DNA of 64,000 bases from a virus, in IMG/VR virus record IMGVR_UViG_3300042290_000327, positions 1-64,000 of that record; one strand, written 5' to 3'. Position numbers and translations under genes: made by a program. Shown here one piece after another: positions 12,223-24,006 of the stretch (position 1 is the first letter of the stretch; each line of letters starts with the position of its first letter). Under the pieces are notes generated by a model that was not told the DNA's origin, did no database searches, and worked only from the letters and a program-made list of their open reading frames with translations.

Positions 12223-12794
12223 TGGAACATTTTTACCATAATATACAAGGGTGGTTTACTTACCCAAATCTATACTCTGAAATGGTTAATAGAGCTTTAG
12301 TTCCTGCACATTTTGTAGAGGTAGGGGTTTGGAAAGGAACTAGTGCAGCCTACATGGCAGTAGAAATAGCAAATTCGGGAAAAACTATAAAGTTTGACTG
12401 TATTGATACCTGGGAGGGATCAGAAGAACATTTGGACCCTGCTAGTTCAGCTTTTGAACTCAACCTCTTGACTAACCAAGACTGGCTTTATGATACCTTT
12501 ATAACTAATATGAAACCAGTACAAGAATGGTATACTCCTTACCGAATGGAATCGCTGCAGGCAGTAAAGCTCTATCAGCCAGCTTCATTGGATTTTGTAT
12601 TTATTGATGCTGCCCACGACTACCAAAGTGTACTAGCTGATATTCAAGCATGGTTTCCAAAAGTAAAAGGAAGTATTGCAGGTCATGACTATAGCTGGAG
12701 CGAGGAAGTTAAGCAGGCTGTACATGATTTTTTTGACCCACTAGGACTAGAGGTGAGAGAAACTGAAGGTTGTTGGGTTGTATATAAAAGTTAA
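12222..12794 (+). CDS. class I SAM methyltransferase (Methyltransf_24-like)
   Basis: VEVGVWKGTS, DFVFIDAAHDY, IAGHDY. Confidence 0.85.
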   Translation: MEHFYHNIQGWFTYPNLYSEMVNRALVPAHFVEVGVWKGTSAAYMAVEIANSGKTIKFDCIDTWEGSEEHLDPASSAFELNLLTNQDWLYDTFITNMKPVQEWYTPYRMESLQAVKLYQPASLDFVFIDAAHDYQSVLADIQAWFPKVKGSIAGHDYSWSEEVKQAVHDFFDPLGLEVRETEGCWVVYKS

Positions 12795-12896
12795 TTTGTA
12801 TATATTTATATAAAAGAGCAGGGGACCGCTCTAAACGACTCACCGACTGGGAGTCAGGTTATGTTAAATTATTAATTAAAAATAGATCTTAGGACT

Positions 12897-13334
12897 ATGA
12901 CACACATCAAGTACACCCCATGGACTGTAGATTATACATCCACATTCGATATCCTTTTTAAGGATTTCTTTAACACAAACTCAACGTTTGTATCCCCGAT
13001 CGATCAAAAGATCGGACATCCAGTAGATATTTATGAAAACGAAAAAGGGTTATTCTTCGAGATCGCCGCTACCGGCCTCTCGAAACAAGATACCAAAATC
13101 TCCATTGAAGGTGACGTCCTTCGAATTATTCACGATAAAGTGGAAGAGCAGATCGATAAGACTAAAGTTCGTTATTACAACAAAGGACTTAGTAAGCGAT
13201 CGTTCAATCTAGGTTATAAGATCGCCCGTCGATTTGATTTGAGTAGCATTGACGCTCAGATGAAAGACGGATTACTAACTATTTCAATCTCTCATGCTGA
13301 AGGCAATAAGCCTCACGAAGTAGAGATTAAATAG
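12897..13334 (+). CDS. small heat shock protein Hsp20
   Basis: PVDIYE, RSFNL, AQMKDGLLTI alpha-crystallin motifs. Confidence 0.9.
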   Translation: MTHIKYTPWTVDYTSTFDILFKDFFNTNSTFVSPIDQKIGHPVDIYENEKGLFFEIAATGLSKQDTKISIEGDVLRIIHDKVEEQIDKTKVRYYNKGLSKRSFNLGYKIARRFDLSSIDAQMKDGLLTISISHAEGNKPHEVEIK

Positions 13335-13392
13335 AGTTGCATTTGGTCCCCTGCAATTTTTTTCGTATCTTTAAGTATTAATCAATATAGTT

Positions 13393-13674
13393 ATGACAAG
13401 AGGAAAAAAAGTTGGGCATATTAAGCCGCAAATTACCATTAAGGATGAGATGATCAATCCTTACTACGTTAGTGTAGATGAGAATCAATTCACCGTTCAG
13501 ATCGAAGGTTCTACTCTCCCGCTTGGGTACTTCAGTACTCTGGAAGTAGCTATCAAACGTATCGCAAAATACAAGCTTGTAGAGAATCTTAATCAGTCTA
13601 CTGTTGACTTGAATAGCTTTCTCAAGGCTTACGATACTGTTCTAAATCAAATCAATAATAGAATCCCAGTATGA
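13393..13674 (+). CDS. hypothetical protein
   Basis: ORF after promoter, coupled to groES. Confidence 0.7.
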   Translation: MTRGKKVGHIKPQITIKDEMINPYYVSVDENQFTVQIEGSTLPLGYFSTLEVAIKRIAKYKLVENLNQSTVDLNSFLKAYDTVLNQINNRIPV

Positions 13675-13967
13675 AAAAATTAATTCCGCTCAATGATCGG
13701 ATAGTTGTAAAACCTATCGAGCAGTCCGAGCAGATGTACGGCAATATTATTATTGCTGATATGGGCAGAGAGCGCCCGGAGATGGGTGAAGTCATCGCAG
13801 TAGGACCCGGTCGGATGTCCGAATACGGCAAATTCATTCCCGTCAACGTAAATGTTGGGGATGTGGTGCTGCTGCCTAAGATCGGAACTATCCGAGTAGA
13901 GTTCGACGGTGAGGAATACTACATCGGTCAATCAAGAGAAATCCTTTGTAAAGTAACAGAAAAATGA
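13671..13967 (+). CDS. groES: co-chaperonin GroES
   Basis: PLNDRIVV, GEVIAVGPG, VGDVVL. Confidence 0.95.
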   Translation: MKKLIPLNDRIVVKPIEQSEQMYGNIIIADMGRERPEMGEVIAVGPGRMSEYGKFIPVNVNVGDVVLLPKIGTIRVEFDGEEYYIGQSREILCKVTEK

Positions 13968-15598
13968 GTAAGAGAGTAGAATTTTCAAATCAAGCCCGTC
14001 TACGGCTCCTAGCAGGAGTTGAGCAGCTTGCCAACGCAGTAACTTCGACATTAGGTCCTAACGGCCGGAATGTCATCATCGAGCAATCAGCCGGTAACCC
14101 GACCTCAACCAAGGACGGTGTGACGGTTGCCAAGGCGATGGAGCTAGAAGATACTATCGAGAACATGGGTGCCCAGCTGGTAAAGCAAGCATCCATTAAG
14201 ACCGCTGACGGAGCCGGTGACGGTACTACTACCTCAACCCTTCTGGCGTACGAGATCTACAGAGAGGGTCTAGAGTATCTAGACTTACATAACGCTGTTG
14301 ATATCAGCCGAGGAGTAGCCAAGGCTACTAAAGGAGTGGTAGAGTATCTGGAGAAACAGGCCCGCGAAATCACTGACGAGAATCAGCTAAGACAGGTAGC
14401 TACTATCTCAGCCAACAACGACCCAGAGGTCGGAGAGCTGATTGCTGCTGCAATGGATAAGGTAGGCCGGGATGGAGTCGTTACTATTGAAGAGTCAAGG
14501 ACGGGTGAGACCTATCTAGAGACTGTTGAGGGTATGCAATTCAATAGAGGTTACAAGTCGATATACTTTGTTACCGATAACAATAGCATGACTGCAGCTC
14601 TGACTAATCCACTGGTGCTGATAACGGATAAAAAGGTTACCGCTGCTAAAGAGCTGCTACCTATACTAGAGGCTTGCTCGGCACAGAACAAGGCTCTGCT
14701 TATTATCGCCGATGACATCGACGGTGAGGCTTTATCAACGCTGGTGGTCAATAAGATGAGAGGTATCTTGCAGGTGGTGGCTGTGAAGGCTCCTGAGTTC
14801 GGAGATCGCAAAAAAGCTATCCTTGAGGATATCGCTACACTGACCGGCGGTCAAGTAGTATCAGCCGAGAAAGGAATGAGACTTGAGAAGTTCAATACCG
14901 ACTGGCTAGGTTCAGCCCGGAAGGTCACCATCGGGAAAGAAGAGACTACAATCGTTGACGGCAAAGGCACCTCAGAAGCTATCCAGGAACGGGTTGAAGA
15001 GATCAAAGCTATGATCGATAACTCAAAGTCACCTTTCGAAAAAGAGTCCTTGCAGGACCGGTTAGGTAGGCTAATAGGCGGTGTAGCGATCGTTTACGTA
15101 GGAGGTCAATCTGAACTAGAGATGAAGGAGAAAAAAGATAGGGTAGAGGATGCACTGCATGCTACTAAGGCAGCCTTGCAGGAGGGCATTTTGCCGGGTG
15201 GTGGTATCGCACTGCTTAACGCCGGCCGCTTCCTGGAGTCAAATAAAGGTGATCTGCATTTCGCTAACACCTCTACTGAGGTCGGATATAATATCCTTCT
15301 GCAGGCTATCAATAAGCCCTTCTTTAAGATCCTGACTAATGCCGGGTACAGTACCGAGTACTGTGATGGCATCAAGGCTAAGGTTCTTGACACGGGTAAT
15401 CCCTGGCAAGGTTTTAATCTACGGACTGAAGAGTACGTTGATATGTTTGAGGAAGGTATTATCGATCCTGCCAAGGTAACACGCCTGGCATTAGAAAATG
15501 CAGCTTCAATTGCAGGTACTATGCTTACAACCGAATGCGTTATAAGCAACCTAAAGGAGAAGAGCAGTGACCCTATGGATTTTAATTCAATGATGTAA
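13964..15598 (+). CDS. groEL: chaperonin GroEL
   Basis: TLGPNGRNV, TKDGVTVA, GDGTTT, GIIDPAKV. Confidence 0.97.
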   Translation: MSKRVEFSNQARLRLLAGVEQLANAVTSTLGPNGRNVIIEQSAGNPTSTKDGVTVAKAMELEDTIENMGAQLVKQASIKTADGAGDGTTTSTLLAYEIYREGLEYLDLHNAVDISRGVAKATKGVVEYLEKQAREITDENQLRQVATISANNDPEVGELIAAAMDKVGRDGVVTIEESRTGETYLETVEGMQFNRGYKSIYFVTDNNSMTAALTNPLVLITDKKVTAAKELLPILEACSAQNKALLIIADDIDGEALSTLVVNKMRGILQVVAVKAPEFGDRKKAILEDIATLTGGQVVSAEKGMRLEKFNTDWLGSARKVTIGKEETTIVDGKGTSEAIQERVEEIKAMIDNSKSPFEKESLQDRLGRLIGGVAIVYVGGQSELEMKEKKDRVEDALHATKAALQEGILPGGGIALLNAGRFLESNKGDLHFANTSTEVGYNILLQAINKPFFKILTNAGYSTEYCDGIKAKVLDTGNPWQGFNLRTEEYVDMFEEGIIDPAKVTRLALENAASIAGTMLTTECVISNLKEKSSDPMDFNSMM

Positions 15599-15735
15599 TG
15601 AGCAAAGTTTCAAGCAAAGCCCGGTACGAGGCATTTCAGGAGTGGTATAAGTGGGCGTCCAATCGCTACGCTTCTTTAAAAAAGAAAAGACGCCCTGACT
15701 CCCAGGACGGTAACTCCAATACTCCTCAGCGATGA
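15598..15735 (+). CDS. small basic hypothetical protein (45 aa)
   Basis: TAATG coupling to groEL; not in ORF track. Confidence 0.45.
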   Translation: MSKVSSKARYEAFQEWYKWASNRYASLKKKRRPDSQDGNSNTPQR

Positions 15736-15899
15736 AGTTCAAGCCCGGTGATACAGTCAAGGTTCTAGATCCTAGAATCAGCTTTACAGTATGTAAGGTA
15801 GTAGAAGTAGAAGGTGCTATCATCCGTATAGAAGATGCCTCAGGAGCAATCCACGAAGTATTCGCTGAACAGCTCCATAAGCAGCTACTATTTGGTTAA
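15732..15899 (+). CDS. small SH3/KOW-like hypothetical protein (55 aa)
   Basis: ATGA coupling; MKFKPGDTVKV pattern. Confidence 0.55.
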   Translation: MKFKPGDTVKVLDPRISFTVCKVVEVEGAIIRIEDASGAIHEVFAEQLHKQLLFG

Positions 15900-15976
15900 A
15901 ACTCTTCTTAGCAGCTTTAGACCTTCGGGGCTATTTATCTTAGTACTATCTCTAGTTTAATTTTGTCTTACTAAAA

Positions 15977-16147
15977 ATGGATCTTAATCGGATTGAAGAA
16001 CTAGGGTTCTTAGCTCACAAGGAAGGTTTTTTCACTCAATGGCAGGACACTGCCTCGCGTTATCTAAAGCGAGAGAACTACCAAGATTCTACTGAAGCCT
16101 ACGAAAGAGCTTACGCAAAATACTCCCAAACAGTTGGATCAAATTAA
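15977..16147 (+). CDS. small hypothetical protein (56 aa)
   Basis: MDLNRIEELG...GSN* after A-rich leader. Confidence 0.5.
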   Translation: MDLNRIEELGFLAHKEGFFTQWQDTASRYLKRENYQDSTEAYERAYAKYSQTVGSN

Positions 16148-16427
16148 ACAAGTTATTATATTTAGCTAGATGAATGGTTTTAGATTTTTGTATTGGGATG
16201 ATTATGAAGCGCCTAAGGGAGACAGCAGAGGAGAGAGCTCTAGCACAGAAGATACGCCGGAAAATGATTCAAAGGGATCACGGGGCGGAAAAGACCCGGT
16301 ATAGACGAGATAAGAGTTGGATGCGAAATGAGTTGGATTGACGAATACGACAATTGGGCACCCGACAGTCCTATGAGCGGACACGTCCTCCATATAGAGG
16401 AGGAAGAGGAGTAAACTCCTAAACCAA

Positions 16428-16512
16428 GCACCAGTGATGAAATGGTAGACATGAGGGACTTAAAATCCCTTGGGCAGGAATGCTCGTGCCGGTTCGAGTC
16501 CGGCCTGGTGTA
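16428..16512 (+). tRNA. tRNA-Leu(TAA)
   Basis: GCACCAG/CTGGTGT acceptor, AGGGA-CTTAAAA-TCCCT, long variable arm. Confidence 0.95.
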
Positions 16513-16535
16513 CAAAAGAAAAAGTTTTTAAAAAA

Positions 16536-16567
16536 GTTGCCTTAATAAAAAATTCTTCATATATTTA
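16536..16567 (+). promoter_or_regulatory. Bacteroidota-type promoter of leader peptide
   Basis: GTTG-N20-TATATTTA, 7 nt before ATG 16575. Confidence 0.75.
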
Positions 16568-16574
16568 TATAACG

Positions 16575-16658
16575 ATGAGACACTGCTTTACATATAACGC
16601 GTCGTGGACACTTCCAGTGCAGAGCATTGAGAAGGATGGTCCTATGTATGCCGGGTGA
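16575..16658 (+). CDS. putative attenuator leader peptide MRHCFTYNASWTLPVQSIEKDGPMYAG (all 20 amino acids)
   Basis: 20 different residues in first 22 codons; 3' end overlaps antiterminator strand. Confidence 0.8.
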   Translation: MRHCFTYNASWTLPVQSIEKDGPMYAG

Positions 16659-16697
16659 AGCAGTCTTAGAGTAACTACGAGACTACAGAAGCCCGGC
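16650..16697 (+). promoter_or_regulatory. putative antiterminator
   Basis: GCCGGGT 16650-16656 can pair with terminator 5' arm GCCCGGC 16691-16697, enclosing AGTCT/AGACT hairpin. Confidence 0.7.
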
Positions 16698-16722
16698 CCC
16701 CAAAGCCGGGTTTTTTGTTTTT
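16689..16722 (+). terminator. intrinsic terminator of the attenuator
   Basis: AAGCCCGGC-CCCCAAA-GCCGGGTTTTTTGTTTTT. Confidence 0.9.
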
Positions 16723-16753
16723 AAGTAGTTACAAAAAAAAAAATAGCCGAAAA

Positions 16754-16785
16754 GTTGGACTGAAGTAAAAACGGTTCTATCTTTA
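16754..16785 (+). promoter_or_regulatory. promoter of tRNA array
   Basis: GTTG-N20-TATCTTTA. Confidence 0.7.
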
Positions 16786-16811
16786 GGTCACTGAGTCGGT
16801 AACACGGCGAA

Positions 16812-16832
16812 GTTCTTTGACATACTGGTAAA
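16812..16832 (+). promoter_or_regulatory. boxA-like element / leader strand of long-range helix (copy 1)
   Basis: GTTCTTTGACATACTGGTAAA resembles rrn boxA; repeated at 20225. Confidence 0.65.
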
Positions 16833-16835
16833 AAT

Positions 16836-16908
16836 GATTCCGTAGCTCAGTTGGTAGAGCAGTACACTTTTAATGTACGGGCCGTGGGTTCGAGCCCCAC
16901 CGGGATCA
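16836..16908 (+). tRNA. tRNA-Lys(TTT)
   Basis: cloverleaf, GTACA-CTTTTAA-TGTAC. Confidence 0.95.
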
Positions 16909-17015
16909 CAGGCGGTTATGCTTCCGAAGTGCTGGTTAGACTGAGACACCTAATCGATGAGCCCATCAAAAAGTGAGTAGTTTTGTGGTAACTACTTAAA
17001 AGTAAACCGCAACAC

Positions 17016-17133
17016 AGTCAGGTGGCGGAATGGTAGACGCACGAAAAAGCAGGTGAGATACAGACTGCTCCAGCAATGGATGATCAAGTGTCCTTGGAAG
17101 GCTCACACACAGGTTCGATTCCTGTCCTGACTA
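17016..17133 (+). ncRNA. tRNA-scaffold RNA copy 1 (118 nt)
   Basis: AGTCAGG/CCTGACT-A acceptor, Leu-type D arm, T arm; unique insert instead of anticodon arm. Confidence 0.75.
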
Positions 17134-17223
17134 CGATTCATAGTGAACCATCTATGAACACAACCAAAGAGTAATATTGGAGGAACTATCAAAGTGGTGA
17201 CGGCTCGGAAAGACGAGTATTAT

Positions 17224-17295
17224 TGGACAGAGCAGGGTATTGCAGCTTGAGGTTCCTAGGCTCAAGAAGATGTGGTTCGAGCCCACACTGTCCAG
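17224..17295 (+). tRNA. atypical tRNA-like RNA (central CCT, 9-nt anticodon loop)
   Basis: TGGACAG/CTGTCCA, GCA/TGC mini D arm, CTTGAG-GTTCCTAGG-CTCAAG, TGTGG-TTCGAGC-CCACA. Confidence 0.6.
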
Positions 17296-17300
17296 CAAAC

Positions 17301-17384
17301 AGTCAGGTGGCGGAATGGTAGACGCAGTAGGGAGAGCCAAAGAGGTATCTACGAAAGTTACAGGTTCGAATCCTGTCCTGACTA
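17301..17384 (+). ncRNA. tRNA-scaffold RNA copy 2 (84 nt)
   Basis: same scaffold; GTAGG/TCTAC stem with 16-nt loop. Confidence 0.75.
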
Positions 17385-17465
17385 CCTAGCCTTGATTTGG
17401 GGCAAGTGCTCGTACATGTTTGCGGGTAAGTCAATACTAAATCTATACTGATGGAAAGACATCGG

Positions 17466-17541
17466 AGTCGGGAAAAGTTGGCATCGGAATGAGCAGTTCG
17501 AAATGTTTCACCGAGTGCAGGTTCGAATCCTGTCCTGACTA
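17466..17541 (+). ncRNA. tRNA-scaffold RNA copy 3 (76 nt, D arm lost)
   Basis: AGTCGGG/CCTGACT acceptor with G-U, T arm, TCGG/CCGA inner stem. Confidence 0.65.
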
Positions 17542-17650
17542 CAAAGTGTTGGTATCCAGGTGGGTGAAGTAGGGGATATACACTTAAATAAAACAACAAC
17601 GGTGAAAATATGTAACGGCCGATAAACATAGAAGTAGCAACGAAGCCCGT

Positions 17651-17703
17651 GACACCAAGTAGATGCCTCCACGTGGCGGTGTTGGATAACCAACCAAATC
17701 TAT
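17651..17703 (+). ncRNA. minimal HDV-like (theta-type) self-cleaving ribozyme
   Basis: P1 GACACC/GGTGTT, P2 GTAGAT/ATCTAT, P3 GCC/GGC, L3 TCCACGT, P1.1 GG, J4/2 ACCAA. Confidence 0.8.
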
Positions 17704-17713
17704 AAATTAAAAT

Positions 17714-17816
17714 AGTCAGGTGGCGGAATGGTAGACGCTAAGTGGGTACACACGATCCCTATTGCAGCAAGGTACACGGCGGCTGGGGAGTACAGGTTCA
17801 AATCCTGTCCTGACTA
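17714..17816 (+). ncRNA. tRNA-scaffold RNA copy 4 (103 nt)
   Basis: same scaffold, unique insert. Confidence 0.75.
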
Positions 17817-17891
17817 CGATGCTTAAAACTAAAACTGAGTGGTTGTCAGTTTATGTTACGCTTTGTTTACGATGGTTCGACTCCATCATAC

Positions 17892-18018
17892 AGTCAGGTG
17901 GCGAAATGGTAGACGCAAATGCCACTCGGAGAAGAAGGAACTACGCCAACATCTCCTTGCAAGTGGTAGGGTATCCTAAAGAGTAAATCCCATACAGGTT
18001 CGAATCCTGTCCTGACTA
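17892..18018 (+). ncRNA. tRNA-scaffold RNA copy 5 (127 nt)
   Basis: same scaffold; TGCCACT/AGTGGTA and GGAGA/TCTCC stems in insert. Confidence 0.75.
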
Positions 18019-18132
18019 CAGGGATATACACTCAAAAAGTGTTGTTAGCAATTCGAATTAGTACGGCTTTGTCTGAGCGAAATTCTTAGGTTGTATAGGC
18101 AGTGGAGCGACACCACATATCTTTTCTAAAAT

Positions 18133-18240
18133 AGTTAGGTGGCGGAATTGGTAACGCACATACAACGAGAGTTCTGCGGGCTCAACCATAAAGAGAGGTG
18201 TATGGTGGTATAAATACAGGTTCGAATCCTGTCCTGACTA
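18133..18240 (+). ncRNA. tRNA-scaffold RNA copy 6 (108 nt)
   Basis: AGTTAGG/CCTGACT; CATACA/TGTATG stem in insert. Confidence 0.75.
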
Positions 18241-18244
18241 CAAT

Positions 18245-18319
18245 GCACCCTTAGCTCAGTTGGTTCAGAGCGTCTCGTTTACACCGAGAGGGTCGGAGGT
18301 TCGAATCCTTCAGGGTGCA
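18245..18319 (+). tRNA. tRNA-Val(TAC)
   Basis: cloverleaf, TCTCG-TTTACAC-CGAGA. Confidence 0.95.
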
Positions 18320-18325
18320 CAAAAT

Positions 18326-18407
18326 GCCTGTATCGCATAGCGGCAATTGCAGCTGACTGTAAATCAGCTCCCATTCGGGTTCGGAGGTTCGAGTCCTTCT
18401 GCAGGCA
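18326..18407 (+). tRNA. tRNA-Tyr(GTA)
   Basis: GCTGA-CTGTAAA-TCAGC, variable arm. Confidence 0.93.
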
Positions 18408-18565
18408 CAAAATTTAAGTTCCTTGTATCTCGTAAAGAGATTCCCGAAAAATAGACTGTCAGCTAGAAGTAGGGTATCGATGATAAGAGTTGAGGAGACG
18501 TAGAAGCGGGTGAATGAATTAGCACTAATAGGTCACCGACGTCGTGCCAAGCTTAAATTTTTAAC

Positions 18566-18647
18566 GGGGGTATCGCATAGCGGCAATTGCAAGGGACTGT
18601 AACTCCCTCCTCATTCGAGTTCGGTGGTTCGAGTCCACCTGCCCCCA
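18566..18647 (+). tRNA. tRNA-Tyr(GTA), second copy
   Basis: AGGGA-CTGTAAC-TCCCT, variable arm. Confidence 0.93.
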
Positions 18648-18652
18648 CACTC

Positions 18653-18726
18653 GCACTGGTAGCTCAATTGGATAGAGCACTTGACTACGGATCAAGAGGT
18701 TCGGGGTTCGACTCCCTGCCGGTGCA
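18653..18726 (+). tRNA. tRNA-Arg(ACG)
   Basis: CTTGA-CTACGGA-TCAAG. Confidence 0.95.
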
Positions 18727-18808
18727 CTGAAGATGGTTATAACAAATACCTGTACCAGAATACCGGTCAAAAATCAGGAATGTGTAGGTAGCGACTTACC
18801 GCTAAACA

Positions 18809-18881
18809 GGACCCGTAGCTCAGTTGGTAGAGCGTCGCCCTGAAGAGGCGAGCGTCAGCAGTTCGAATCTGTTCGGGTCCA
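18809..18881 (+). tRNA. tRNA-Phe(GAA)
   Basis: TCGCC-CTGAAGA-GGCGA. Confidence 0.95.
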
Positions 18882-18887
18882 CAGCAC

Positions 18888-18962
18888 TGGAATGTAGCTC
18901 AGTTGGTTTAGAGCACCTCGCTGATACCGAGGGGGTCGTAGGTTCGAGTCCTATCTTTCCAA
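18888..18962 (+). tRNA. tRNA-Ile(GAT)
   Basis: CCTCG-CTGATAC-CGAGG; one U-U mismatch in acceptor. Confidence 0.88.
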
Positions 18963-18966
18963 CAAC

Positions 18967-19040
18967 GGTCCTGTACCCAAGCGGTCAAAGGGAACTGTTT
19001 GCAAAACAGCCACTCGCTGGTTCGAATCCAGCCGGGACCT
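18967..19040 (+). tRNA. tRNA-Cys(GCA)
   Basis: CTGT-TTGCAAA-ACAG, U73. Confidence 0.92.
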
Positions 19041-19046
19041 CTACAG

Positions 19047-19117
19047 TACCCCGTCGTCTAATGGCAGGACAAATGACTTTGACTCATTTAATGGTAGTTC
19101 GAATCTATCCGGGGTAA
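19047..19117 (+). tRNA. tRNA-Gln(TTG)
   Basis: AATGA-CTTTGAC-TCATT. Confidence 0.93.
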
Positions 19118-19122
19118 CAAAC

Positions 19123-19193
19123 GCGTCTGTAGTGAAAGGGTATCATAGGGGTCTCCAAAACCTTTGTTGAGGGTTCGAATCCTTCCGGGCGTG
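19123..19193 (+). tRNA. tRNA-Trp(CCA)
   Basis: GGGGT-CTCCAAA-ACCTT. Confidence 0.92.
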
Positions 19194-19199
19194 CTAGAT

Positions 19200-19273
19200 G
19201 GCGAGGTAGCTCAGATGGTTAGAGCGCAGGATTCATAACCCTGAGGTCGGCAGTTCGATCCTGCCTCTCGCTA
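19200..19273 (+). tRNA. elongator tRNA-Met(CAT)
   Basis: CAGGA-TTCATAA-CCCTG, paired 1-72. Confidence 0.9.
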
Positions 19274-19274
19274 C

Positions 19275-19507
19275 TAAAATAAGAGGACCTATCGCTTCAA
19301 AAGAAGAGGAAACTCAGGACATCACAGCTTAAGGTGGAAGATATAAGGTGTACGCCTTATCTCGCACGATTATAAGGTTACAGCCTTATAACATTACACC
19401 ACCGAGGATGCAACCCGAAACAGTCTATAATGGTGAGCTGATTAGACAAGGTAGGGGCAAAGATTAATGATAGGATAAAACAAGATCCTGGTTACTCTCT
19501 TATTTTA
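19275..19507 (+). ncRNA. rnpB: minimal RNase P RNA
   Basis: P1 ends pair; GAGGAAACTCAGGA pairs TCCTGGTT (P4 with bulged U); P2 CCTATC/GATAGG; P5, P6, P7, P15 identifiable. Confidence 0.85.
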
Positions 19508-19512
19508 AACAT

Positions 19513-19586
19513 GGTGGATGTAGCTCAGTTGGTAGAGCAATAGATTGTGGTTCTATTGGTCGCGGGTTCGATTCCCGTCATTCACC
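19513..19586 (+). tRNA. tRNA-His(GTG)
   Basis: G-1/C73, ATAGA-TTGTGGT-TCTAT. Confidence 0.95.
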
Positions 19587-19595
19587 CTAAACAAA

Positions 19596-19683
19596 GGAAG
19601 GTTGGCTGAGTGGACGAAAGCGGTAGTTTGCTAAACTATTGATCGGGTTAACCGGTCCACAGGTTCGAATCCTGTACCTTCCG
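19596..19683 (+). tRNA. tRNA-Ser(GCT)
   Basis: GTAGT-TTGCTAA-ACTAT, long variable arm, G73. Confidence 0.95.
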
Positions 19684-19700
19684 CATTTTAGTTATTAATC

Positions 19701-20162
19701 ATGAACAAGGTATTTAAAAGCGGTACTACCGGCAGACCTATCAACTTAATCAGTTACATTCTGGATTACATAAAAGAATATCCAGAGACAAAGATTTACG
19801 TTGGTACTGACTCCCAGAACAGGGGTCCGGAGACAATCTACGCTACTACGGTAGTGCTGAGATACAGAACAAGAGGATGCCATGTTCTGTATTACAAAAC
19901 AAGAGTTCCTCTGGTAAGAGATTTTTGGAGCAGGCTCTGGAGAGAGACAGAAATGTCAATCGAAACTGCTACATTTATTGTGGAGAATAGTCCTCTAAAG
20001 GTGGAGTCAATAGATCTTGACTTTAATGATGATGAGTATAAGGCTTCAAATAAATTAGTCTCTGCTTCTAAAGGATGGGTATCGGCTGCAGGCTTTAAGT
20101 CTACAACCAAACCTGCCCTGCAGATTGCAACCAGAGCAGCCGATCACATTATCAGAAATTAA
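19701..20162 (+). CDS. RNase H-like YkuK/DUF458 family protein
   Basis: IYVGTDSQ, RLWRE, IDLDFN, ATRAADH motifs. Confidence 0.8.
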   Translation: MNKVFKSGTTGRPINLISYILDYIKEYPETKIYVGTDSQNRGPETIYATTVVLRYRTRGCHVLYYKTRVPLVRDFWSRLWRETEMSIETATFIVENSPLKVESIDLDFNDDEYKASNKLVSASKGWVSAAGFKSTTKPALQIATRAADHIIRN

Positions 20163-20172
20163 TTCTGAAAGA

Positions 20173-20204
20173 GTTGCCAGAATGTAAAAACGTTCGTATC
20201 TTTA
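20173..20204 (+). promoter_or_regulatory. internal promoter of tRNA array
   Basis: GTTG-N20-TATCTTTA. Confidence 0.7.
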
Positions 20205-20224
20205 TATAGTTGAAAGAGAACAAC

Positions 20225-20245
20225 GATCTTTGACATACTGGTAAA
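20225..20245 (+). promoter_or_regulatory. boxA-like element / leader strand (copy 2)
   Basis: GATCTTTGACATACTGGTAAA. Confidence 0.65.
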
Positions 20246-20302
20246 AAAACTTAGACACGTTCTCGTGTTTTCCAAGCCTCTACCTATTTATATAAAAGAG
20301 GT

Positions 20303-20731
20303 ATGAGAAAAGAAACACGAGAAGACTTTCAAAAAGCTATAGAAGCTTCAAACTCTATGCAAGAAGCTGCTAGACTGTTGGGAATGAGCTACGATACTTT
20401 TAGAAGCTATGCTCGTAAGTACGGAGTTTTTAATCCTAATCAAGCGGGGAAAGGACGTATGAAGGCTAAAATTTATAAAGAGGCTGATGACGTATTTCAA
20501 AAGGTTGATAAACAGATCGGTAGAGCTATTGTAAAGAAATGGCTTCTGCAGGAAAGAGAGTATAGATGTCAAAAATGTGGAAATAGTGGGGAGTGGCAAG
20601 GAGAGCCTCTAGCTTTAGAGTTAGAACATATAAATGGAGATTCACTTGATAATACGAGAGAAAATCTACTTATACTATGTCCTAACTGCCACTCCCAAAC
20701 TTCTACCTTTAGAGGTAGGAAAATTAAATAA
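20303..20731 (+). CDS. HNH endonuclease with N-terminal HTH
   Basis: CQKCG...LELEHING...NLLILCPNCHSQ. Confidence 0.88.
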   Translation: MRKETREDFQKAIEASNSMQEAARLLGMSYDTFRSYARKYGVFNPNQAGKGRMKAKIYKEADDVFQKVDKQIGRAIVKKWLLQEREYRCQKCGNSGEWQGEPLALELEHINGDSLDNTRENLLILCPNCHSQTSTFRGRKIK

Positions 20732-20805
20732 GCCCTCGTGACGGAACTGGCATACGTACTAGACTTAGGATCTAGGTTTTGGGAGTTCGACTCTCCCCGG
20801 GGGTA
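20732..20805 (+). tRNA. tRNA-Leu(TAG), short variable loop
   Basis: CTAGA-CTTAGGA-TCTAG, 5-nt variable loop. Confidence 0.9.
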
Positions 20806-20814
20806 CAAAAATAT

Positions 20815-20891
20815 GGTCTCGTAGCTCAGCTGGATAGAGCATCGCACTTCTAATGCGACGGTCATTGGTTCGAATCCAATCGAGATCACCA
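20815..20891 (+). tRNA. tRNA-Arg(TCT)
   Basis: TCGCA-CTTCTAA-TGCGA, encoded CCA. Confidence 0.95.
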
Positions 20892-20895
20892 CAAT

Positions 20896-20968
20896 GGTCG
20901 GTTCATCTAGGGGTCTAGGATGTTACCCTTTCACGGTAGACACACGGGTTCGAATCCCGTACCGACTA
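20896..20968 (+). tRNA. tRNA-Glu(TTC)
   Basis: TTACC-CTTTCAC-GGTAG. Confidence 0.93.
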
Positions 20969-21079
20969 CAAAAGTGTTAACCACCCGACCTACTAGGGTG
21001 AAGTATCGAGTACGATATACTTGAATAGAATAGGTGGCTACCATAAGAACGCCATAAACTCGTTAACACTTTCTTATAT

Positions 21080-21151
21080 CGCGGGATAGAGCAGAGGTAG
21101 CTCACAAGGCTCATAACCTTGGGGTCGGAGGTTCGATTCCTTCTCCCGCAA
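21080..21151 (+). tRNA. initiator tRNA-fMet(CAT)
   Basis: C1-A72 mismatch, CAAGG-CTCATAA-CCTTG. Confidence 0.9.
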
Positions 21152-21158
21152 CTAGATA

Positions 21159-21232
21159 GGGGGATTAGCTCAGCTGGCTAGAGCGACTGCCTTGCACGCA
21201 GTAGGTCAACGGTTCGACTCCGTTATTCTCCA
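21159..21232 (+). tRNA. tRNA-Ala(TGC)
   Basis: G3-U70, ACTGC-CTTGCAC-GCAGT. Confidence 0.95.
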
Positions 21233-21321
21233 CTAAGAAGTGTCGCAATACGCGTTTCAATCTGATTGATAGACGTATCAATAAAAGATGTCCGGAGGTG
21301 AAAATCCTTAGCTTCTTAAAT

Positions 21322-21429
21322 AGTCAGGAGCGGAGTGGCTCCGTGATCGCAACTTAAAGAGATAGTCATACGAACTTTATGTGTCAGGCTATGTACGCGG
21401 TAGAACAGGTTCGATTCCTGTCCTGACTA
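21322..21429 (+). ncRNA. tRNA-scaffold RNA copy 7 (108 nt)
   Basis: AGTCAGG/CCTGACT, remodelled D arm GCGGAG/CTCCGT, ATAGTC/GGCTAT insert stem. Confidence 0.7.
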
Positions 21430-21480
21430 CGAGGCTATATTTTTGCATGTTTATTATAGCGAATAAAGAAAACATGCGTT

Positions 21481-21621
21481 AGTCAGGTGGCGGAATGGTA
21501 GACGCACCCAAAGTATGTGAGGGAAAAATAATCATATAGGTTGCTGCCTTAAGGTAGTAAGGCCTGAAAGTTTAAACTTTTAATTGTAAAAGTTATACAG
21601 GTTCAAATCCTGTCCTGACTA
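21481..21621 (+). ncRNA. tRNA-scaffold RNA copy 8 (141 nt)
   Basis: same scaffold; three hairpins in insert. Confidence 0.75.
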
Positions 21622-21707
21622 CACAATCAGCCACAAGAGGATTGGCATTGAGTTGTTGCAACTAAACAAAATGCAAGTGGTTGACAGCTTGGAAAGACAA
21701 GCAACAT

Positions 21708-21940
21708 AGTCAGGTGGCGGAATGGCTACTTCAACCCCGCGCAGTCGGAGCAATAGATACGGTTCGAATCCGTTGTGGGGTCAATGAGTAGTTTTGGTAG
21801 ACGCAGGTTTGTAGGTTACGTGCCACGAGATGAAAGCAACCTTAATATCGGAGTTAACAACCGAAAAGATAGTTAAACTATTGACCTGAATTGACAGGAA
21901 GTTAAATAATGGCTTACAGGTTCAAATCCTGTCCTGACTA
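21708..21940 (+). ncRNA. tRNA-scaffold RNA copy 9 (233 nt, extra D-loop insertion)
   Basis: same scaffold; D loop split by ~70-nt insertion carrying its own acceptor+T-arm mimic. Confidence 0.7.
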
Positions 21941-22155
21941 CAATGAGTAAGAGATACTCAGAGTCTTTAATCCAAGACTTAAACAATGGATAGGGTATTG
22001 GGCCGGACATCCTTAAACGCCGGTTTCGTGGGAACAAAGGAGAGCGACACACCTCCTCCCAGTAGTGTTGACTTTTTCAAGGTGTAAGAACCGCAGGGTT
22101 TTGAAAGCAAAAAACCGGGAATATCTACTCACTGGAATCTCAGGTGGGGTAATTT

Positions 22156-22229
22156 GGTGCGGTAGTTCAGTCGGTTAGAATACAGGCCTGTCACGCCTGG
22201 GGTCGCGGGTTCGAGTCCCGTCCGCACCG
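22156..22229 (+). tRNA. tRNA-Asp(GTC)
   Basis: CAGGC-CTGTCAC-GCCTG. Confidence 0.96.
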
Positions 22230-22368
22230 CTATAGAAACAGAGGAGGCGTAGAGCAACTAGCCGGGAGAGCGGCGACGCAAGGGTACACACTTAGTAGCT
22301 CTCTTATTGGTGTGTGAAGCTTCTTAGTCAGATTCCTGATAAAGTTGTTCCTGTTTCTTTTGTATATT

Positions 22369-22456
22369 GGAGGTTTGGCAGAGTGGTCGATTGCGGTAGT
22401 CTTGAAAACTATTGACTGTAACAGGTCCCGGGGTTCGAATCCCTGAGCCTCCGCCA
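22369..22456 (+). tRNA. tRNA-Ser(TGA)
   Basis: GTAGT-CTTGAAA-ACTAT, long variable arm, encoded CCA. Confidence 0.95.
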
Positions 22457-22457
22457 T

Positions 22458-22530
<73 letters not shown>

Positions 22531-22554
22531 CTAACTTTTAAATCCCCCTTTCTT

Positions 22555-22746
22555 ATGTCAAAAGCAGAGAAAATTCTCTACATGGTTATGTACACCTTGT
22601 TCACCGTTGGTACAATCCTTGCAATTGCTCGTAATGAATACGGCCATGCAATCTGGGTTATCACCGGGTTTATGTGGATGCATAACGCCTTTACCAATCG
22701 CCGGGAAGTAATTAAGCTCCAGGAAGAGTTGGAAAGTACAAAGTAA
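22555..22746 (+). CDS. small 2-TM membrane protein
   Basis: two hydrophobic stretches. Confidence 0.6.
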   Translation: MSKAEKILYMVMYTLFTVGTILAIARNEYGHAIWVITGFMWMHNAFTNRREVIKLQEELESTK

Positions 22747-22791
22747 GTTCATATATTTATATAAGTTAATCAATTAATTAAATTCAAAGTT

Positions 22792-22947
22792 ATGAAAAAT
22801 TTCATGCTTATGGCTGCTGCCGTTCTCGCTCTTGCTTCTTGCGCTAACACCGAAGAAGTAGCTGTTGAAGAAGTATCAGTAGACACTACCGCCGTAGTAG
22901 AAGATACTACTGTAGTAGCAGAAGGTGACGAAGCAGCTGCAGAATAA
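22792..22947 (+). CDS. small acidic lipoprotein (51 aa, not in ORF track)
   Basis: MKNFMLMAAAVLALAS-C lipobox; own promoter at 22728. Confidence 0.75.
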   Translation: MKNFMLMAAAVLALASCANTEEVAVEEVSVDTTAVVEDTTVVAEGDEAAAE

Positions 22948-23074
22948 TACTGAGTCTAGCCTCCAAATCCTAATAGCCGAAAGGTGATGGTTAGGTTGAC
23001 GTGGGAAAAGTCAACAACAGAGCAGGGGAAGAGCGTGAACCAATAAGCGCCTCGTCGAAATGCTTCCCCAATTT

Positions 23075-23147
23075 GCCTCCATAGCTCAGTTGGTAGAGCT
23101 GCTGATTTGTAATCAGCAGGTCGGCGGTTCGAGTCCGTCTGGAGGCT
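23075..23147 (+). tRNA. tRNA-Thr(TGT)
   Basis: GCTGA-TTTGTAA-TCAGC. Confidence 0.96.
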
Positions 23148-23296
23148 CAGCAGTTACCTGATTTAGCACTAGGACGGTAACAACCATTGGAGGAAGCTAA
23201 CCTCACGAATGGTCCTGTAGGTTGTCGATTAATCGCGTAAAGTTTCCTACCAGGTAGAGTAGGTGAGTCCTTGTTGGTGATAAAGCTCTACCGTTT

Positions 23297-23369
23297 GCGA
23301 AAGTAGCTCAGTTGGTAGAGCATGACCTTGCCAAGGTCAGGGTCGCCGGTTCGAACCCGGTCTTTCGCT
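23297..23369 (+). tRNA. tRNA-Gly(GCC)
   Basis: TGACC-TTGCCAA-GGTCA. Confidence 0.96.
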
Positions 23370-23374
23370 CTAAT

Positions 23375-23447
23375 GCGGTAATAGCTCAGTTGGTAGAGCA
23401 CGTTCCTTCCAAGTACGGGGTCGCAGGTTCGAATCCTGTTTACCGCT
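23375..23447 (+). tRNA. tRNA-Gly(TCC)
   Basis: CGTTC-CTTCCAA-GTACG. Confidence 0.92.
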
Positions 23448-23448
23448 C

Positions 23449-23745
23449 AAAAGTAATGTGGCTGAATAAAGGGTTAAGAGTCCTTAAGGCACTGGTCGAT
23501 CTGCTGAAAAGCAGTGAGGTTGGGTCATACAGACATATGAGTTAAAACCACTCAAACTATAGGGTAGAATGCGCAACCCGGTAGTCAATGAGGTCCCGCC
23601 AAGTGAGATAATTATGATCTTTGCAACGGGTGCTGGTAGTCAAGCCAGCTGGTCATTACAGCAGAACTAGCTACTCTGTTGGACCATGGGTGAAAAGGGG
23701 TATGTCCAGGACGTGTAGGTAGTCAGGAATCCTATCATTATTTTT
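23449..23745 (+). ncRNA. candidate ~300-nt structured ncRNA
   Basis: ends pair (AAAAGTAATG/CATTATTTTT), many internal hairpins, flanked by tRNAs. Confidence 0.45.
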
Positions 23746-23751
23746 TTTTAA

Positions 23752-23823
23752 GCTCATGTGGCGCAGTGGTAGCGCAGTAGACTGTTAATCTATTGGTCGT
23801 TGGTTCGAATCCATCCATGAGCG
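23752..23823 (+). tRNA. tRNA-Asn(GTT)
   Basis: GTAGA-CTGTTAA-TCTAT. Confidence 0.93.
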
Positions 23824-23828
23824 CTTAA

Positions 23829-23845
23829 TTTACCAGTATGTCAAA
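23829..23845 (+). repeat. trailer strand complementary to both boxA-like leaders
   Basis: TTTACCAGTATGTCAAA is the exact reverse complement of 16816-16832 and 20229-20245. Confidence 0.85.
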
Positions 23846-23848
23846 AAT

Positions 23849-23922
23849 GGGCCTGTAGCTCAGTCGGTTAGAGCGAGGGACTCATAATCCCCAGGTCCCA
23901 GGTTCGAGCCCTGGCAGGCCCA
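23849..23922 (+). tRNA. tRNA-Ile2(CAT) (probable lysidine tRNA)
   Basis: GGGCCTG acceptor, GGGA-CTCATAA-TCCC; third CAT tRNA. Confidence 0.85.
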
Positions 23923-24006
23923 CACTTAAACTAAACATAAACTTAAGTTAAACTTGATAAGAGAGTTTAATTCTATCTTATAATAAGATTAATTAACTTA
24001 ACGATT

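What the first reader, a model, noticed from the sequence alone, without database searches (positions are those of the whole stretch)
16536..16722. All-20-amino-acid leader peptide plus attenuator in front of a complete tRNA array: candidate pan-tRNA depletion sensor
Seen: promoter GTTG-N20-TATATTTA (16536-16567), then a nearly leaderless ORF 16575-16658, ATG AGA CAC TGC TTT ACA TAT AAC GCG TCG TGG ACA CTT CCA GTG CAG AGC ATT GAG AAG GAT GGT CCT ATG TAT GCC GGG TGA = MRHCFTYNASWTLPVQSIEKDGPMYAG. The first 22 codons contain all 20 amino acids. The only repeats are Thr and Ser, and the two Ser codons (TCG, AGC) need different tRNAs. With equal residue frequencies, 22 draws cover all 20 with probability about 1e-6. 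The last codons carry GCCGGGT (16650-16656), identical to the 3' arm of the downstream intrinsic terminator (GCCCGGC-loop-GCCGGGTTTTTT, 16691-16716), so it can sequester the 5' arm. Established: this is the geometry of ribosome-mediated attenuators (trp, his), which use runs of one amino acid. Inference: a ribosome reaching the stop covers GCCGGGT and the terminator forms. Stalling at any earlier codon (starvation, or host anticodon nucleases such as PrrC or PARIS AriB) frees it and allows read-through into the tRNA array, whose downstream part alone covers all 20 amino acids. I know of no described pangram attenuator. Caveat: a second promoter at 16754 lies after the terminator, so the switch may boost rather than gate expression.
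Basis: partly seen in the sequence, partly recalled or inferred. Interest (0 to 1): 0.96.

Follow-up and report, generated by a model that had tools for sequence, protein, structure and literature searches.

The report
Leader-peptide attenuator before phage tRNA array
A lake phage carries a tiny 27-codon gene using all 20 amino acids, wired to a switchable transcription stop just ahead of its full set of tRNA genes, and it probably lets the phage make more tRNA when ribosomes stall.

Summary
The promoter (16536-16567), the 27-codon ORF (16575-16658), all 20 amino acids within its first 22 codons, the GCCGGGT copy and the terminator are all present.

The element is not unique. Diverged copies in other uncultured phages (L230, L204/L205, and about eight more sORF-terminator-tRNA modules) keep four things:
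- the same ATG and reading frame;
- a stop codon at the end of the strand that pairs with the terminator's 5' arm;
- a 27-29 nt gap between stop and terminator in window, L230 and L204;
- a second promoter and a boxA-like box before the tRNAs.

In fold models, a ribosome at the stop frees the terminator arm, while a ribosome stalled earlier leaves the arm trapped. Shuffled sequences rarely match this (4/120, 0/120 and 2/120).

Across the family, leaders tend to contain the amino acids of the tRNA block behind their terminator (combined p about 0.004 without this window). This block is complete, and so is this leader.

Points against:
- close variants lose Arg, Cys or His;
- one variant loses the ATG;
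- the 7-bp antiterminator is weak;
- nothing shows translation or termination in vivo.

This scan noted the same kind of element earlier on other phage DNA. My four literature searches, plus term look-ups in two papers, found no printed account.

The parts
16428..16513 (+). tRNA-Leu(taa). It lies upstream of the element, so the switch does not control it. The leader has no TTR codon.
   Evidence: ARAGORN and Rfam. A tRNA-Leu(taa) also precedes the element in L230, L204, L205, L278 and L289.
16536..16567 (+). Promoter P1, GTTG-N20-TATATTTA. It ends 7 nt before the ATG, so the mRNA would be nearly leaderless.
   Evidence: The motif occurs 20 times against 2.2 expected. The same motif lies 3-5 nt before the ATG of long ORFs of 777, 167 and 113 aa. 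A TATAnnTA-like box lies just before the ATG in L230, L204, L122 and L200.
16575..16658 (+). Leader ORF of 27 codons plus TGA. All 20 amino acids occur within codons 1-22.
   Evidence: The frame and start are kept in L230 (38 codons) and L204/L205 (28 codons).
16650..16656 (+). 5' strand of the outer antiterminator helix (GCCGGGT). It covers the last two sense codons plus the first base of the stop.
   Evidence: It pairs with 16691-16697 in the nascent-RNA fold. A ribosome at the stop codon covers it.
16662..16684 (+). Inner helix of the antiterminator hairpin: AGTCTT (16662-16667) pairs with GAGACT (16679-16684). The loop holds GTAACTAC.
   Evidence: Nascent-RNA fold. GTAACTAC is shared with L204/L205.
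16687..16722 (+). Intrinsic terminator: an 11-pair stem AGAAGCCCGGC / GCCGGGTTTTT with a 7-nt loop, followed by a T run.
   Evidence: It is the only terminator that the same scanner finds on the + strand between 12000 and 27000. The core CCCGGCCC-NN-AAAGCCGGGTTTT is identical in L230 and L204/L205.
16754..16785 (+). Promoter P2 (GTTG-N20-TATCTTTA), downstream of the terminator. It would give constitutive entry into the array.
   Evidence: A TATCTTTA-type box is kept after the terminator in L230 and L204; L205 has TATTTTTA. Relatives that lack the element also have it (L003).
16812..16832 (+). boxA-like GTTCTTTGACAT leader box just before tRNA-Lys.
   Evidence: The box recurs before tRNAs in L003, L005, L230, L204, L088, L195, L184, L122 and L200. 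Another note on this window pointed it out.
16836..23923 (+). The controlled block: 26 tRNA genes covering all 20 amino acids and 23 distinct anticodons. tRNA-like scaffold RNAs, an RNase P-like RNA and a few ORFs are interspersed.
   Evidence: By my reading with standard wobble rules, leader codons can be read by 22 of the 23 downstream anticodon species. Arg-acg is not sampled, and CTT needs U:U wobble.

Best explanation
This is a ribosome-dependent transcription attenuator (leader-peptide type) that tunes read-through from promoter P1, and from upstream transcription, into the phage's tRNA array.

Proposed mechanism:
- P1 starts a nearly leaderless mRNA, and a ribosome translates the 27-codon leader.
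- As RNA polymerase makes the terminator's 5' arm (16691-16697), that arm pairs with the last leader codons (16650-16656, plus an inner helix) to form an antiterminator.
- If the ribosome has already reached the last codons or the stop, it covers that strand. The 5' arm stays free, the terminator forms and transcription ends at about 16722.
- If the ribosome is held up anywhere earlier, or never starts, the antiterminator persists. Polymerase then runs on past P2 and the boxA-like box into the tRNA genes.

Leaders of this family tend to hold the amino acids whose tRNAs lie in the block behind them. The switch would therefore report how well those codons are being decoded and feed back on tRNA supply. 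Here the block covers all 20 amino acids, and so does the leader.

Shown: the sequence features, their conservation, the in-silico switch and the composition trend. Inferred: translation of the leader, termination, read-through on stalling, and the biological trigger (starvation or host tRNA-cleaving defence).
For: 1. Homologues keep the ORF.
- Window, L230 and L204/L205 start at ATGA[G/A]ACA[C/T] and stay open for 27, 38 and 28 codons. The chance of that is 0.24 x 0.10 x 0.16. The other two frames hold 1-4 stops.
- The peptides align at M[KR]H, T, EK, G and Y.
- L230 shares AAACATATG[GC]TCA in frame with L122/L200.

2. The stop codon tracks the antiterminator.
- In all three lineages it sits at the 3' end of the strand that pairs with the terminator's 5' arm, 29, 28 and 27 nt before the terminator stem.
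- The pairing sequences differ: GCCGGGT:GCCCGGC in the window, CCGGGTTTAG:CTAAACCCGG in L230, GGGTCTGTC:GACAGACCC in L204.

3. Nascent-RNA folds.
- With a ribosome stalled at codons 5-17, the terminator 5' arm is pre-paired at 1.00, 0.90 and 0.83.
- With a ribosome at the stop, it is pre-paired at 0.58, 0.05 and 0.14.
- Dinucleotide shuffles reach the observed difference in 4/120, 0/120 and 2/120 cases.

4. Full-length equilibrium folds.
- P(terminator) is 1.0 with a ribosome at the stop in every lineage.
- It falls to about 0 for early stalls in L230 and L204.

5. P1 belongs to a phage promoter family that also drives leaderless long genes.

6. A generic scan of 3.09 Mb of held phage DNA found 24 terminators with a tRNA 20-450 nt downstream. 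It gave 18 sORF rows, about 12 distinct elements, with 27-51 codons ending 21-31 nt before the terminator.

7. Leaders cover the amino acids of their terminator-delimited tRNA block.
- L205 9/9, L195a 16/16, L195b 5/5, L122 13/13, L156 12/12, L151 16/18, L184 10/11, L114 13/16.
- Fisher combined p = 0.0036 without the window, and 0.0058 with L200.
- L122 lacks D, E and G, whose tRNAs lie behind the next terminator.

8. The window's block is terminator-free and complete.
Against: - No direct evidence of translation, termination or read-through. The RNA libraries laid were contigs only.
- Natural variants of the window-type leader lose unique residues: R2K (L278, P0007, P0008), C4Y (P0001), H3Q+C4S (P0002, P0003, P0005, P0006). 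P0010 has Ile in place of the start Met. Four of six distinct nonsynonymous changes remove a singleton residue, so completeness shows no sign of purifying selection.
- The window's antiterminator outer helix is only 7 bp against an 11-bp terminator. At equilibrium, only stalls at codons 5-12 lower P(terminator), to 0.18-0.84.
- L205 also switches weakly.
- Without block limits, the composition test is null (pooled Fisher p = 0.35). L200 taken to the locus end covers 14/18 (p = 0.56). Single-element p values are mostly 0.04-0.4.
- The extra family members were picked partly by tail-to-arm complementarity, so their switch scores are not independent tests.
- Each codon occurs once or twice only, unlike the codon runs that make classical attenuators sensitive.
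- The closest relatives by GroEL (L002-L009) lack the element altogether.
Confidence: 0.6

Rival explanations
1. Strong pangram version. The leader has been selected to contain every amino acid, so that loss of any single tRNA de-represses the array. Such loss could come from PrrC-like or PARIS-like nucleases. Completeness itself would be the functional feature.
For: - All 20 residues occur in 27 (P = 4-6e-5) and in the first 22 (3-4e-7).
- The diverged L230 leader and its variant P0004 also hold all 20 in 38 residues (P = 4-6e-3).
- By my reading, 22 of 23 downstream anticodon species are sampled.
- The family-wide trend for leaders to mirror their tRNA block.
Against: - Only 1 of 6 window-type peptide variants is complete.
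- R2 is derived: the outgroups and L278 have K.
- Substitutions do not avoid singleton residues.
- Without the window and L230, leader diversity is ordinary (Stouffer z = 1.37).
- L114, L151 and L184 each miss 1-3 residues of their block.
Confidence: 0.15
2. Stand-alone small RNA. P1 to the terminator makes a structured transcript of about 145 nt that acts as an RNA, in trans or as a processing by-product. The open frame and its composition would be incidental.
For: - A promoter plus terminator unit with no long gene.
- The transcript folds well: -55.4 kcal/mol with z = -5.2, and the 5' hairpin alone has z = -3.6.
- One variant lacks the ATG (P0010).
- The synonymous TCG>TCA change turns a G.U pair into A-U in the predicted stem (my reading).
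Against: - No Rfam family matches; only a 19.7-bit hit on the terminator.
- The frame stays open in three saturated lineages (joint chance about 0.004) while the middle sequence is not conserved.
- The stop codon tracks the antiterminator strand.
- Two of three substitutions (CTT>CTC, AGA>AAA) break predicted pairs of the 5' hairpin.
Confidence: 0.12
3. Small functional protein. The ORF encodes a 27-38 aa peptide that has a role of its own. The terminator simply ends this unit and the upstream GroEL/tRNA-Leu transcript.
For: - A conserved start, M[KR]..H, and a Trp in every family member.
- Codons 5-27 are invariant at protein level in the window-type variants except A9T, with two synonymous changes.
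Against: - Peptide identity between lineages is only 12-36%.
- Lengths vary from 27 to 51 residues.
- It does not explain why the last codons always carry a near-copy of the terminator's 3' arm.
- It does not explain why composition follows the tRNA block.
Confidence: 0.08
4. Chance. The ORF, the repeat and the pangram are coincidences in an intergenic spacer at the edge of a 4.2-kb tRNA insertion.
For:
- A 23-codon pangram occurs by chance inside a gene of the same window.
- The nearest relatives lack the element.
Against: - Homologous elements with the same architecture occur in at least three diverged lineages, and similar modules in about eight more.
- The shuffle controls.
- The conserved terminator, P2 and boxA-like box.
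Confidence: 0.05

Closest known systems
Leader-peptide transcription attenuators of amino-acid operons (trpL, hisL, leuL, thrL, pheL; multivalent ilvGMEDA leader). Family features recalled, not taken from a call.
   Same: A short leader ORF, an intrinsic terminator, and a mutually exclusive antiterminator whose 5' strand is covered by a ribosome at the end of the leader. Slow decoding leads to read-through.
   Different: - The controlled genes are tRNAs, not biosynthetic enzymes.
- The leader has no runs of regulatory codons; it holds one or two codons each of many or all amino acids.
- The mRNA is nearly leaderless and driven by a phage promoter.
- A second promoter follows the terminator.
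- The no-ribosome state is predicted to favour the antiterminator in the nascent RNA.
Ribosome-mediated attenuators that respond to general translation inhibition, such as bmrCD of B. subtilis (PMC4191407; search listing and start of the abstract seen only).
   Same: A leader ORF whose slowed translation, whatever the cause, relieves a downstream terminator. It is a generic stall sensor rather than a sensor of one amino acid.
   Different: Those control drug-efflux or resistance genes in bacteria and respond to antibiotics. Here the output is a phage tRNA array, and the leader's composition follows that array.
Anabaena sp. PCC 7120 long tRNA array (trn operon) induced under translational stress (PMC8421152, passages read; PMC10272220, abstract start and term look-up).
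   Same: An accessory tRNA array whose expression rises when translation is impaired.
   Different: [quoted passage not shown] The terms 'leader peptide', 'attenuat' and 'terminator' do not occur in either text. It is a bacterial plasmid array, not a phage.
T-box riboswitches (recalled).
   Same: They sense tRNA status and act through a terminator/antiterminator choice.
   Different: T-boxes bind uncharged tRNA directly and need no translation. No T-box or other Rfam family matches this element.
Leader-peptide attenuators before phage tRNA arrays noted earlier in this scan on other genomes (AI notes e1-5618024, e1-3450868, e1-4040834, e1-5943215 and others).
   Same: The same architecture and the same idea that the leader mirrors the tRNA block behind the terminator.
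   Different: - Those are other phages (giant phages, Caulobacter phages, a marine Bacteroidota phage, a lake phage).
- I did not compare sequences with them.
- This window is the case with a complete 20-amino-acid block and leader.

Membership tests
Ribosome-dependent (leader-peptide) transcription attenuator | A short ORF upstream of the controlled genes with a plausible start | tested here: met
   The 27-codon ORF has its ATG 7 nt after a family promoter. The frame is kept in L230 and L204/L205.
Ribosome-dependent (leader-peptide) transcription attenuator | An intrinsic terminator between the leader ORF and the controlled genes | tested here: met
   An 11-pair GC-rich stem plus T run at 16687-16722. 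Its core sequence is conserved in the homologues.
Ribosome-dependent (leader-peptide) transcription attenuator | An alternative antiterminator pairing that a ribosome at the end of the leader would mask | tested here: met
   In-silico only. The evidence is nascent-RNA folds with ribosome masks in three lineages, plus shuffle controls reaching the observed difference in 4/120, 0/120 and 2/120 cases. The window's helix is the weakest, at 7 bp.
Ribosome-dependent (leader-peptide) transcription attenuator | Regulatory codons cognate to what the controlled genes supply | tested here: inconclusive
   There are no codon runs. Leaders cover the amino acids of their tRNA block (combined p = 0.0036 without the window). 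The test is null without block limits (p = 0.35), and close variants lose R, C or H.
Ribosome-dependent (leader-peptide) transcription attenuator | The leader is translated, and termination responds to ribosome stalling in vivo | not testable with these tools
   Only contigs of RNA libraries were available. No raw reads, Ribo-seq or Term-seq were available.
T-box riboswitch | Stem I specifier loop and the conserved T-box sequence | tested here: not met
   The Rfam E-value scan of 15500-25000 gives no T-box hit. The only hit on the element is CC0196 at 19.7 bits on the terminator.
Known small RNA family | A match to a curated covariance model | tested here: not met
   No Rfam family reaches its gathering score at 16536-16722.

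The most novel reading that the evidence does not exclude
Phages carry a homeostatic decoding gauge. A leaderless mini-gene, written in the amino acids of the tRNA block behind it, measures in real time whether those codons can still be read. It opens a terminator when they cannot. In this phage the gauge spans all 20 amino acids, so loss of any tRNA species, for example through a host anticodon nuclease, would trigger extra transcription of the full replacement tRNA set.
Probability: 0.3. Interest if true: 0.9.

Novelty: new variant of a known kind. Interest (0 to 1): 0.72.

Why it matters
Phage tRNA arrays are usually discussed as codon-usage helpers or as replacements for tRNAs destroyed by host defences. 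How their expression is controlled is little studied.

A translation-coupled attenuator in front of the array would mean the phage measures decoding capacity directly and adjusts tRNA supply. That extends the classic trp/his attenuation logic from amino-acid synthesis to tRNA genes.

The element is small (about 300 bp), has natural variants (R2K, C4Y, H3Q/C4S, start-codon loss) and has diverged homologues. The idea can therefore be tested directly with reporter fusions.

The all-20 leader in front of an all-20 array is the clearest single illustration of the composition rule.

Tried and rejected
- Exact and wobble-degenerate patterns of the ORF found nothing in viral contigs.
- blastn of 15600-18300 against GenBank phages gave only tRNA hits.
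- GroEL-based relatives L002-L009 lack the element. In them, tRNA-Leu(taa) is followed directly by a promoter, the box and tRNA-Leu(tag). Window 16521-20730 is therefore an insertion relative to them.
- The pattern GTAACTAC..CCCGGCC..GCCGGGTTTT gave 16 stretches. Two were the L204/L205 contigs. The other 14 were one unrelated near-identical prophage gene end, and I dropped them.
- The terminator-core pattern gave 63 metagenome and 41 viral stretches. Only L230, L272, L278 and L289 (metagenome) and the L204/L205 contigs (viral) carry the element; the rest were dropped.
- The profile search of 1.84 billion representatives returned 6 hits. Only P0004 and P0002 are true; I took P0012-P0015 as spurious multi-stretch hits and did not inspect them. 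Cluster member P0011 (741 aa) is unrelated and was ignored.
- RNA libraries (contigs only): no RNA contig lay on 16542-16745 in X15, X16 or X17, which proves nothing. RNA-library contigs do cover 16760-17022 (X15, depth 2), 16827-17075 (X16) and pieces of 16810-17100 (X17). DNA carry-over cannot be excluded. DNA run X11 has a contig over 16444-16886 with 0 differences, so it offers no variation to use.
- Testing whether the leader tracks all downstream tRNAs regardless of terminators gave no signal (p = 0.35). I then tested terminator-delimited blocks, after reading earlier scan notes. That choice was made after seeing the data, although the delimiting rule itself was automatic.
- dN/dS-type arguments were dropped. 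There are only 3 nucleotide substitutions among the window-type DNAs and 3 between L204 and L205.
- The L114 15-codon ORF, which ends 4 nt from the terminator, was dropped as a different geometry.
- Supplementary files of papers were not consulted.
- The genome-contig scan, structure prediction and complex prediction were not used.
Full report
WHAT IS THERE. The window is the first 64 kb of a 120,715-bp uncultured virus record. Near-identical DNA stands in 14 lake-water metagenome runs. tRNA-Leu(taa) lies at 16428-16513 and tRNA-Lys(ttt) at 16836-16909. Between them the sequence reads, in order:
- GTTG-N20-TATATTTA at 16536-16567;
- an ATG at 16575 opening a 27-codon ORF that ends with TGA at 16656-16658;
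- a 28-nt spacer;
- an 11-pair GC-rich hairpin with a T run at 16687-16722;
- a second GTTG-N20-TATCTTTA at 16754-16785;
- GTTCTTTGACAT at 16812.

The peptide is MRHCFTYNASWTLPVQSIEKDGPMYAG. Its first 22 residues hold all 20 amino acids.

IS IT MORE THAN CHANCE?
- It is the only 22-codon pangram in the six frames of the window. A 23-codon one lies inside a gene at 47234.
- In 1.97 Mb of 199 other phage loci there is none of 23 codons or fewer, and one of 24.
- With ATG given, the chance that 22 codons are complete is 2.7-3.8e-7. The chance that the whole 27-residue peptide is complete is 4-6e-5.
- The promoter motif is real. It occurs 20 times against 2.2 expected, almost all on the + strand.
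- In three cases the motif ends 3-5 nt before the ATG of a long ORF (777, 167 and 113 aa). Leaderless mRNAs therefore look normal for this phage.

RELATIVES WITHOUT THE ELEMENT. Phages found through the neighbouring GroEL gene (99%, 89% and 80% protein identity) have only 3-8 tRNAs and no match to 16514-16835. In L003-L009, tRNA-Leu(taa) is followed by a promoter, the GTTCTTTGAC box and tRNA-Leu(tag); L002 carries no tRNA-Leu. Window 16521-20730 is an insertion relative to them.

HOMOLOGUES.
- L204/L205. Relatives of a 153-aa ORF inside the insertion led to these loci. After tRNA-Leu(taa) and a tRNA-like gene, they carry a TATATGTA box, ATGAAACAC, a 28-codon ORF, the loop word GTAACTAC, the same terminator core CCCGGCCC-NN-AAAGCCGGGTTTT, a promoter box (TATCTTTA in L204, TATTTTTA in L205) and the GTTCTTTGAC box.
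- Near-identical copies. A metagenome scan with the terminator core gave three of them: L272 (identical ORF), L289 (two synonymous changes) and L278 (the same two plus AGA>AAA, R2K).
- L230. The same scan gave this distant copy: ATGAAACAT, a 38-codon ORF, the terminator, P2, the box and tRNA-Lys.
- Peptide variants. Protein-database look-ups added MRHYF.. (no Cys), MRQSF.. (no His, no Cys), MKHCFTYNTSW.., IRQSF.. (start codon lost) and an L230-type variant that is still complete.

THE FRAME AND THE SWITCH ARE CONSERVED.
- The three diverged lineages keep the frame open from the same ATG (chance 0.24 x 0.10 x 0.16), while the other frames hold stops. The peptides align.
- In each lineage the stop codon sits at the 3' end of the strand that pairs with the terminator's 5' arm, 29, 28 and 27 nt before the terminator stem. 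The pairing sequences differ between lineages.
- I folded the nascent RNA up to the terminator loop with a 31-nt ribosome mask. With a ribosome stalled at codons 5-17, the 5' arm is already paired at 1.00, 0.90 and 0.83 in window, L230 and L204. With the ribosome at the stop, those values are 0.58, 0.05 and 0.14.
- Dinucleotide shuffles of the ORF and spacer reach the observed difference in 4/120, 0/120 and 2/120 cases.
- In full-length equilibrium folds the terminator has probability 1.0 with a ribosome at the stop in every lineage. It drops to about 0 for early stalls in L230 and L204.
- In the window it drops only to 0.18-0.84 for codons 5-12, and it drops little in L205. The window's 7-bp helix is the weakest of the set.

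A WIDER FAMILY.
Of these, 24 have a same-strand tRNA 20-450 nt downstream.
- At those 24 sites there were 18 rows of ATG ORFs of 15-60 codons ending 5-55 nt before the stem. That comes to about 12 distinct elements, mostly of 27-51 codons ending 21-31 nt before the terminator.
- Most are followed by the GTTCTTTGAC box and tRNAs.
- Most peptides share M[KR]..H, and all but L195b hold a Trp. L230 and L122/L200 share AAACATATG[GC]TCA in frame.
- Six of these elements also show the switch (0/80 to 9/80 shuffles). They were selected partly by tail-to-arm complementarity, so that test is not independent.

IS THE PANGRAM MEANINGFUL?
Against:
- Only 1 of 6 window-type peptide variants is complete.
- R2 is derived.
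- Substitutions do not avoid singleton residues.
- Apart from the window (z = 3.9) and L230 (z = 2.7), leader diversity is ordinary (Stouffer z = 1.37).
- A first test of leader against all downstream tRNAs was null (p = 0.35).

For:
- Earlier notes of this scan on other phages describe leaders that mirror the tRNA block behind their terminator, so I tested blocks delimited automatically by the next terminator.
- With Met set aside, coverage was: L205 9/9, L195a 16/16, L195b 5/5, L122 13/13, L156 12/12, L151 16/18, L184 10/11, L114 13/16, L088 4/5, L230 3/3 (both truncated) and L200 14/18.
- Composition-aware p values combine to 0.0036 without the window, or 0.0058 with L200.
- L122 lacks D, E and G, whose tRNAs lie behind the next terminator.
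- L195 has two leaders. The one before the Met-Glu-Arg-Gly-Ala-Leu block draws 14 of 26 residues from those amino acids (p = 0.03). The other lacks Ala and Gly.
- By the same scanner, the window's + strand from 12000 to 27000 has a single terminator, the element itself. Its block is therefore all 26 downstream tRNAs, covering 20 amino acids.
- By my reading with standard wobble rules, 22 of 23 downstream anticodon species are sampled. The only upstream tRNA, Leu(taa), is not.

An all-20 leader is thus what the family trend predicts for a complete block. The trend is moderate, though, and the block analysis was chosen after a null first attempt.

WHAT IT IS NOT. No Rfam family matches the element. 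It has no T-box features.

LITERATURE.
- Four full-text searches found no leader-peptide attenuator before tRNA genes and no pangram leader.
- The nearest printed analogue is the Anabaena trn array, which is induced by translational stress through promoter repeats and TrcR.
- For PMC8421152 I read passages. For PMC10272220 I ran a term look-up. Neither text contains 'leader peptide', 'attenuat' or 'terminator'.
- I did not see the supplements of these papers.

VERDICT. The best reading is a ribosome-dependent attenuator of a conserved phage family that boosts transcription into the tRNA array when leader translation lags. I put confidence at about 0.6. I rate it less likely that exact completeness is itself selected. 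All steps beyond sequence, conservation and in-silico folding are inferred.

Noticed in passing
window 17016-18243 (also 21322-21940 per another note): Six or more tRNA-like units share the same acceptor, D and T arms (..CAGGTGGCGGAATGGTAGACGC .. ACAGGTTCGAATCCTGTCCTGACTAC) but carry different 60-130 nt inserts where the anticodon arm should be. RNA-library contigs cover 16827-17100.
   Followed up: partly
window 19276-19510: A short RNase P class A-like RNA (Rfam RF00010, 49.7 bits, E = 3.7e-13, below the gathering score of 100) sits between tRNA-Met and tRNA-His.
   Followed up: no
window 23437-23745: A weak manA RNA-like match (RF01745, 31.1 bits against a gathering score of 55.2) inside the tRNA array. 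A similar stretch is conserved at 76-83% identity in L201, L205 and L207.
   Followed up: no
window 11363-12799: A stretch of about 1.4 kb is absent from all eight close relatives (L002-L009), whose homology resumes exactly on either side. It is a likely mobile insertion.
   Followed up: no
window 19701-20162 and 20303-20731: Two ORFs lie inside the tRNA array. One is a 153-aa protein conserved at 79-83% identity in 12 IMG/VR tRNA-array loci (11 contigs; L201 shares its contig with L112). The other is a 142-aa ORF that looks like an HNH endonuclease by eye (motif recalled, not scanned).
   Followed up: partly
window 8990-9021, 25516-25547, 56881-56912: Phage promoters GTTG-N20-TAT[AC]TTTA end 3-5 nt before the ATG of long ORFs. 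This points to routine use of leaderless mRNAs.
   Followed up: partly
window 16812-16832 and 20225-20245; L003, L005, L230, L204, L088, L195, L184, L122, L200: A conserved GTTCTTTGACAT box follows the tRNA-array promoters and precedes tRNAs in many phage loci. Another note on this window calls it boxA-like.
   Followed up: partly
L195 663-794 and 3497-3704: One phage contig carries two leader-terminator modules. One precedes a Met-Glu-Arg-Gly-Ala-Leu tRNA block and the other precedes the remaining 16 amino acids. Each leader lacks residues that belong to the other block.
   Followed up: partly
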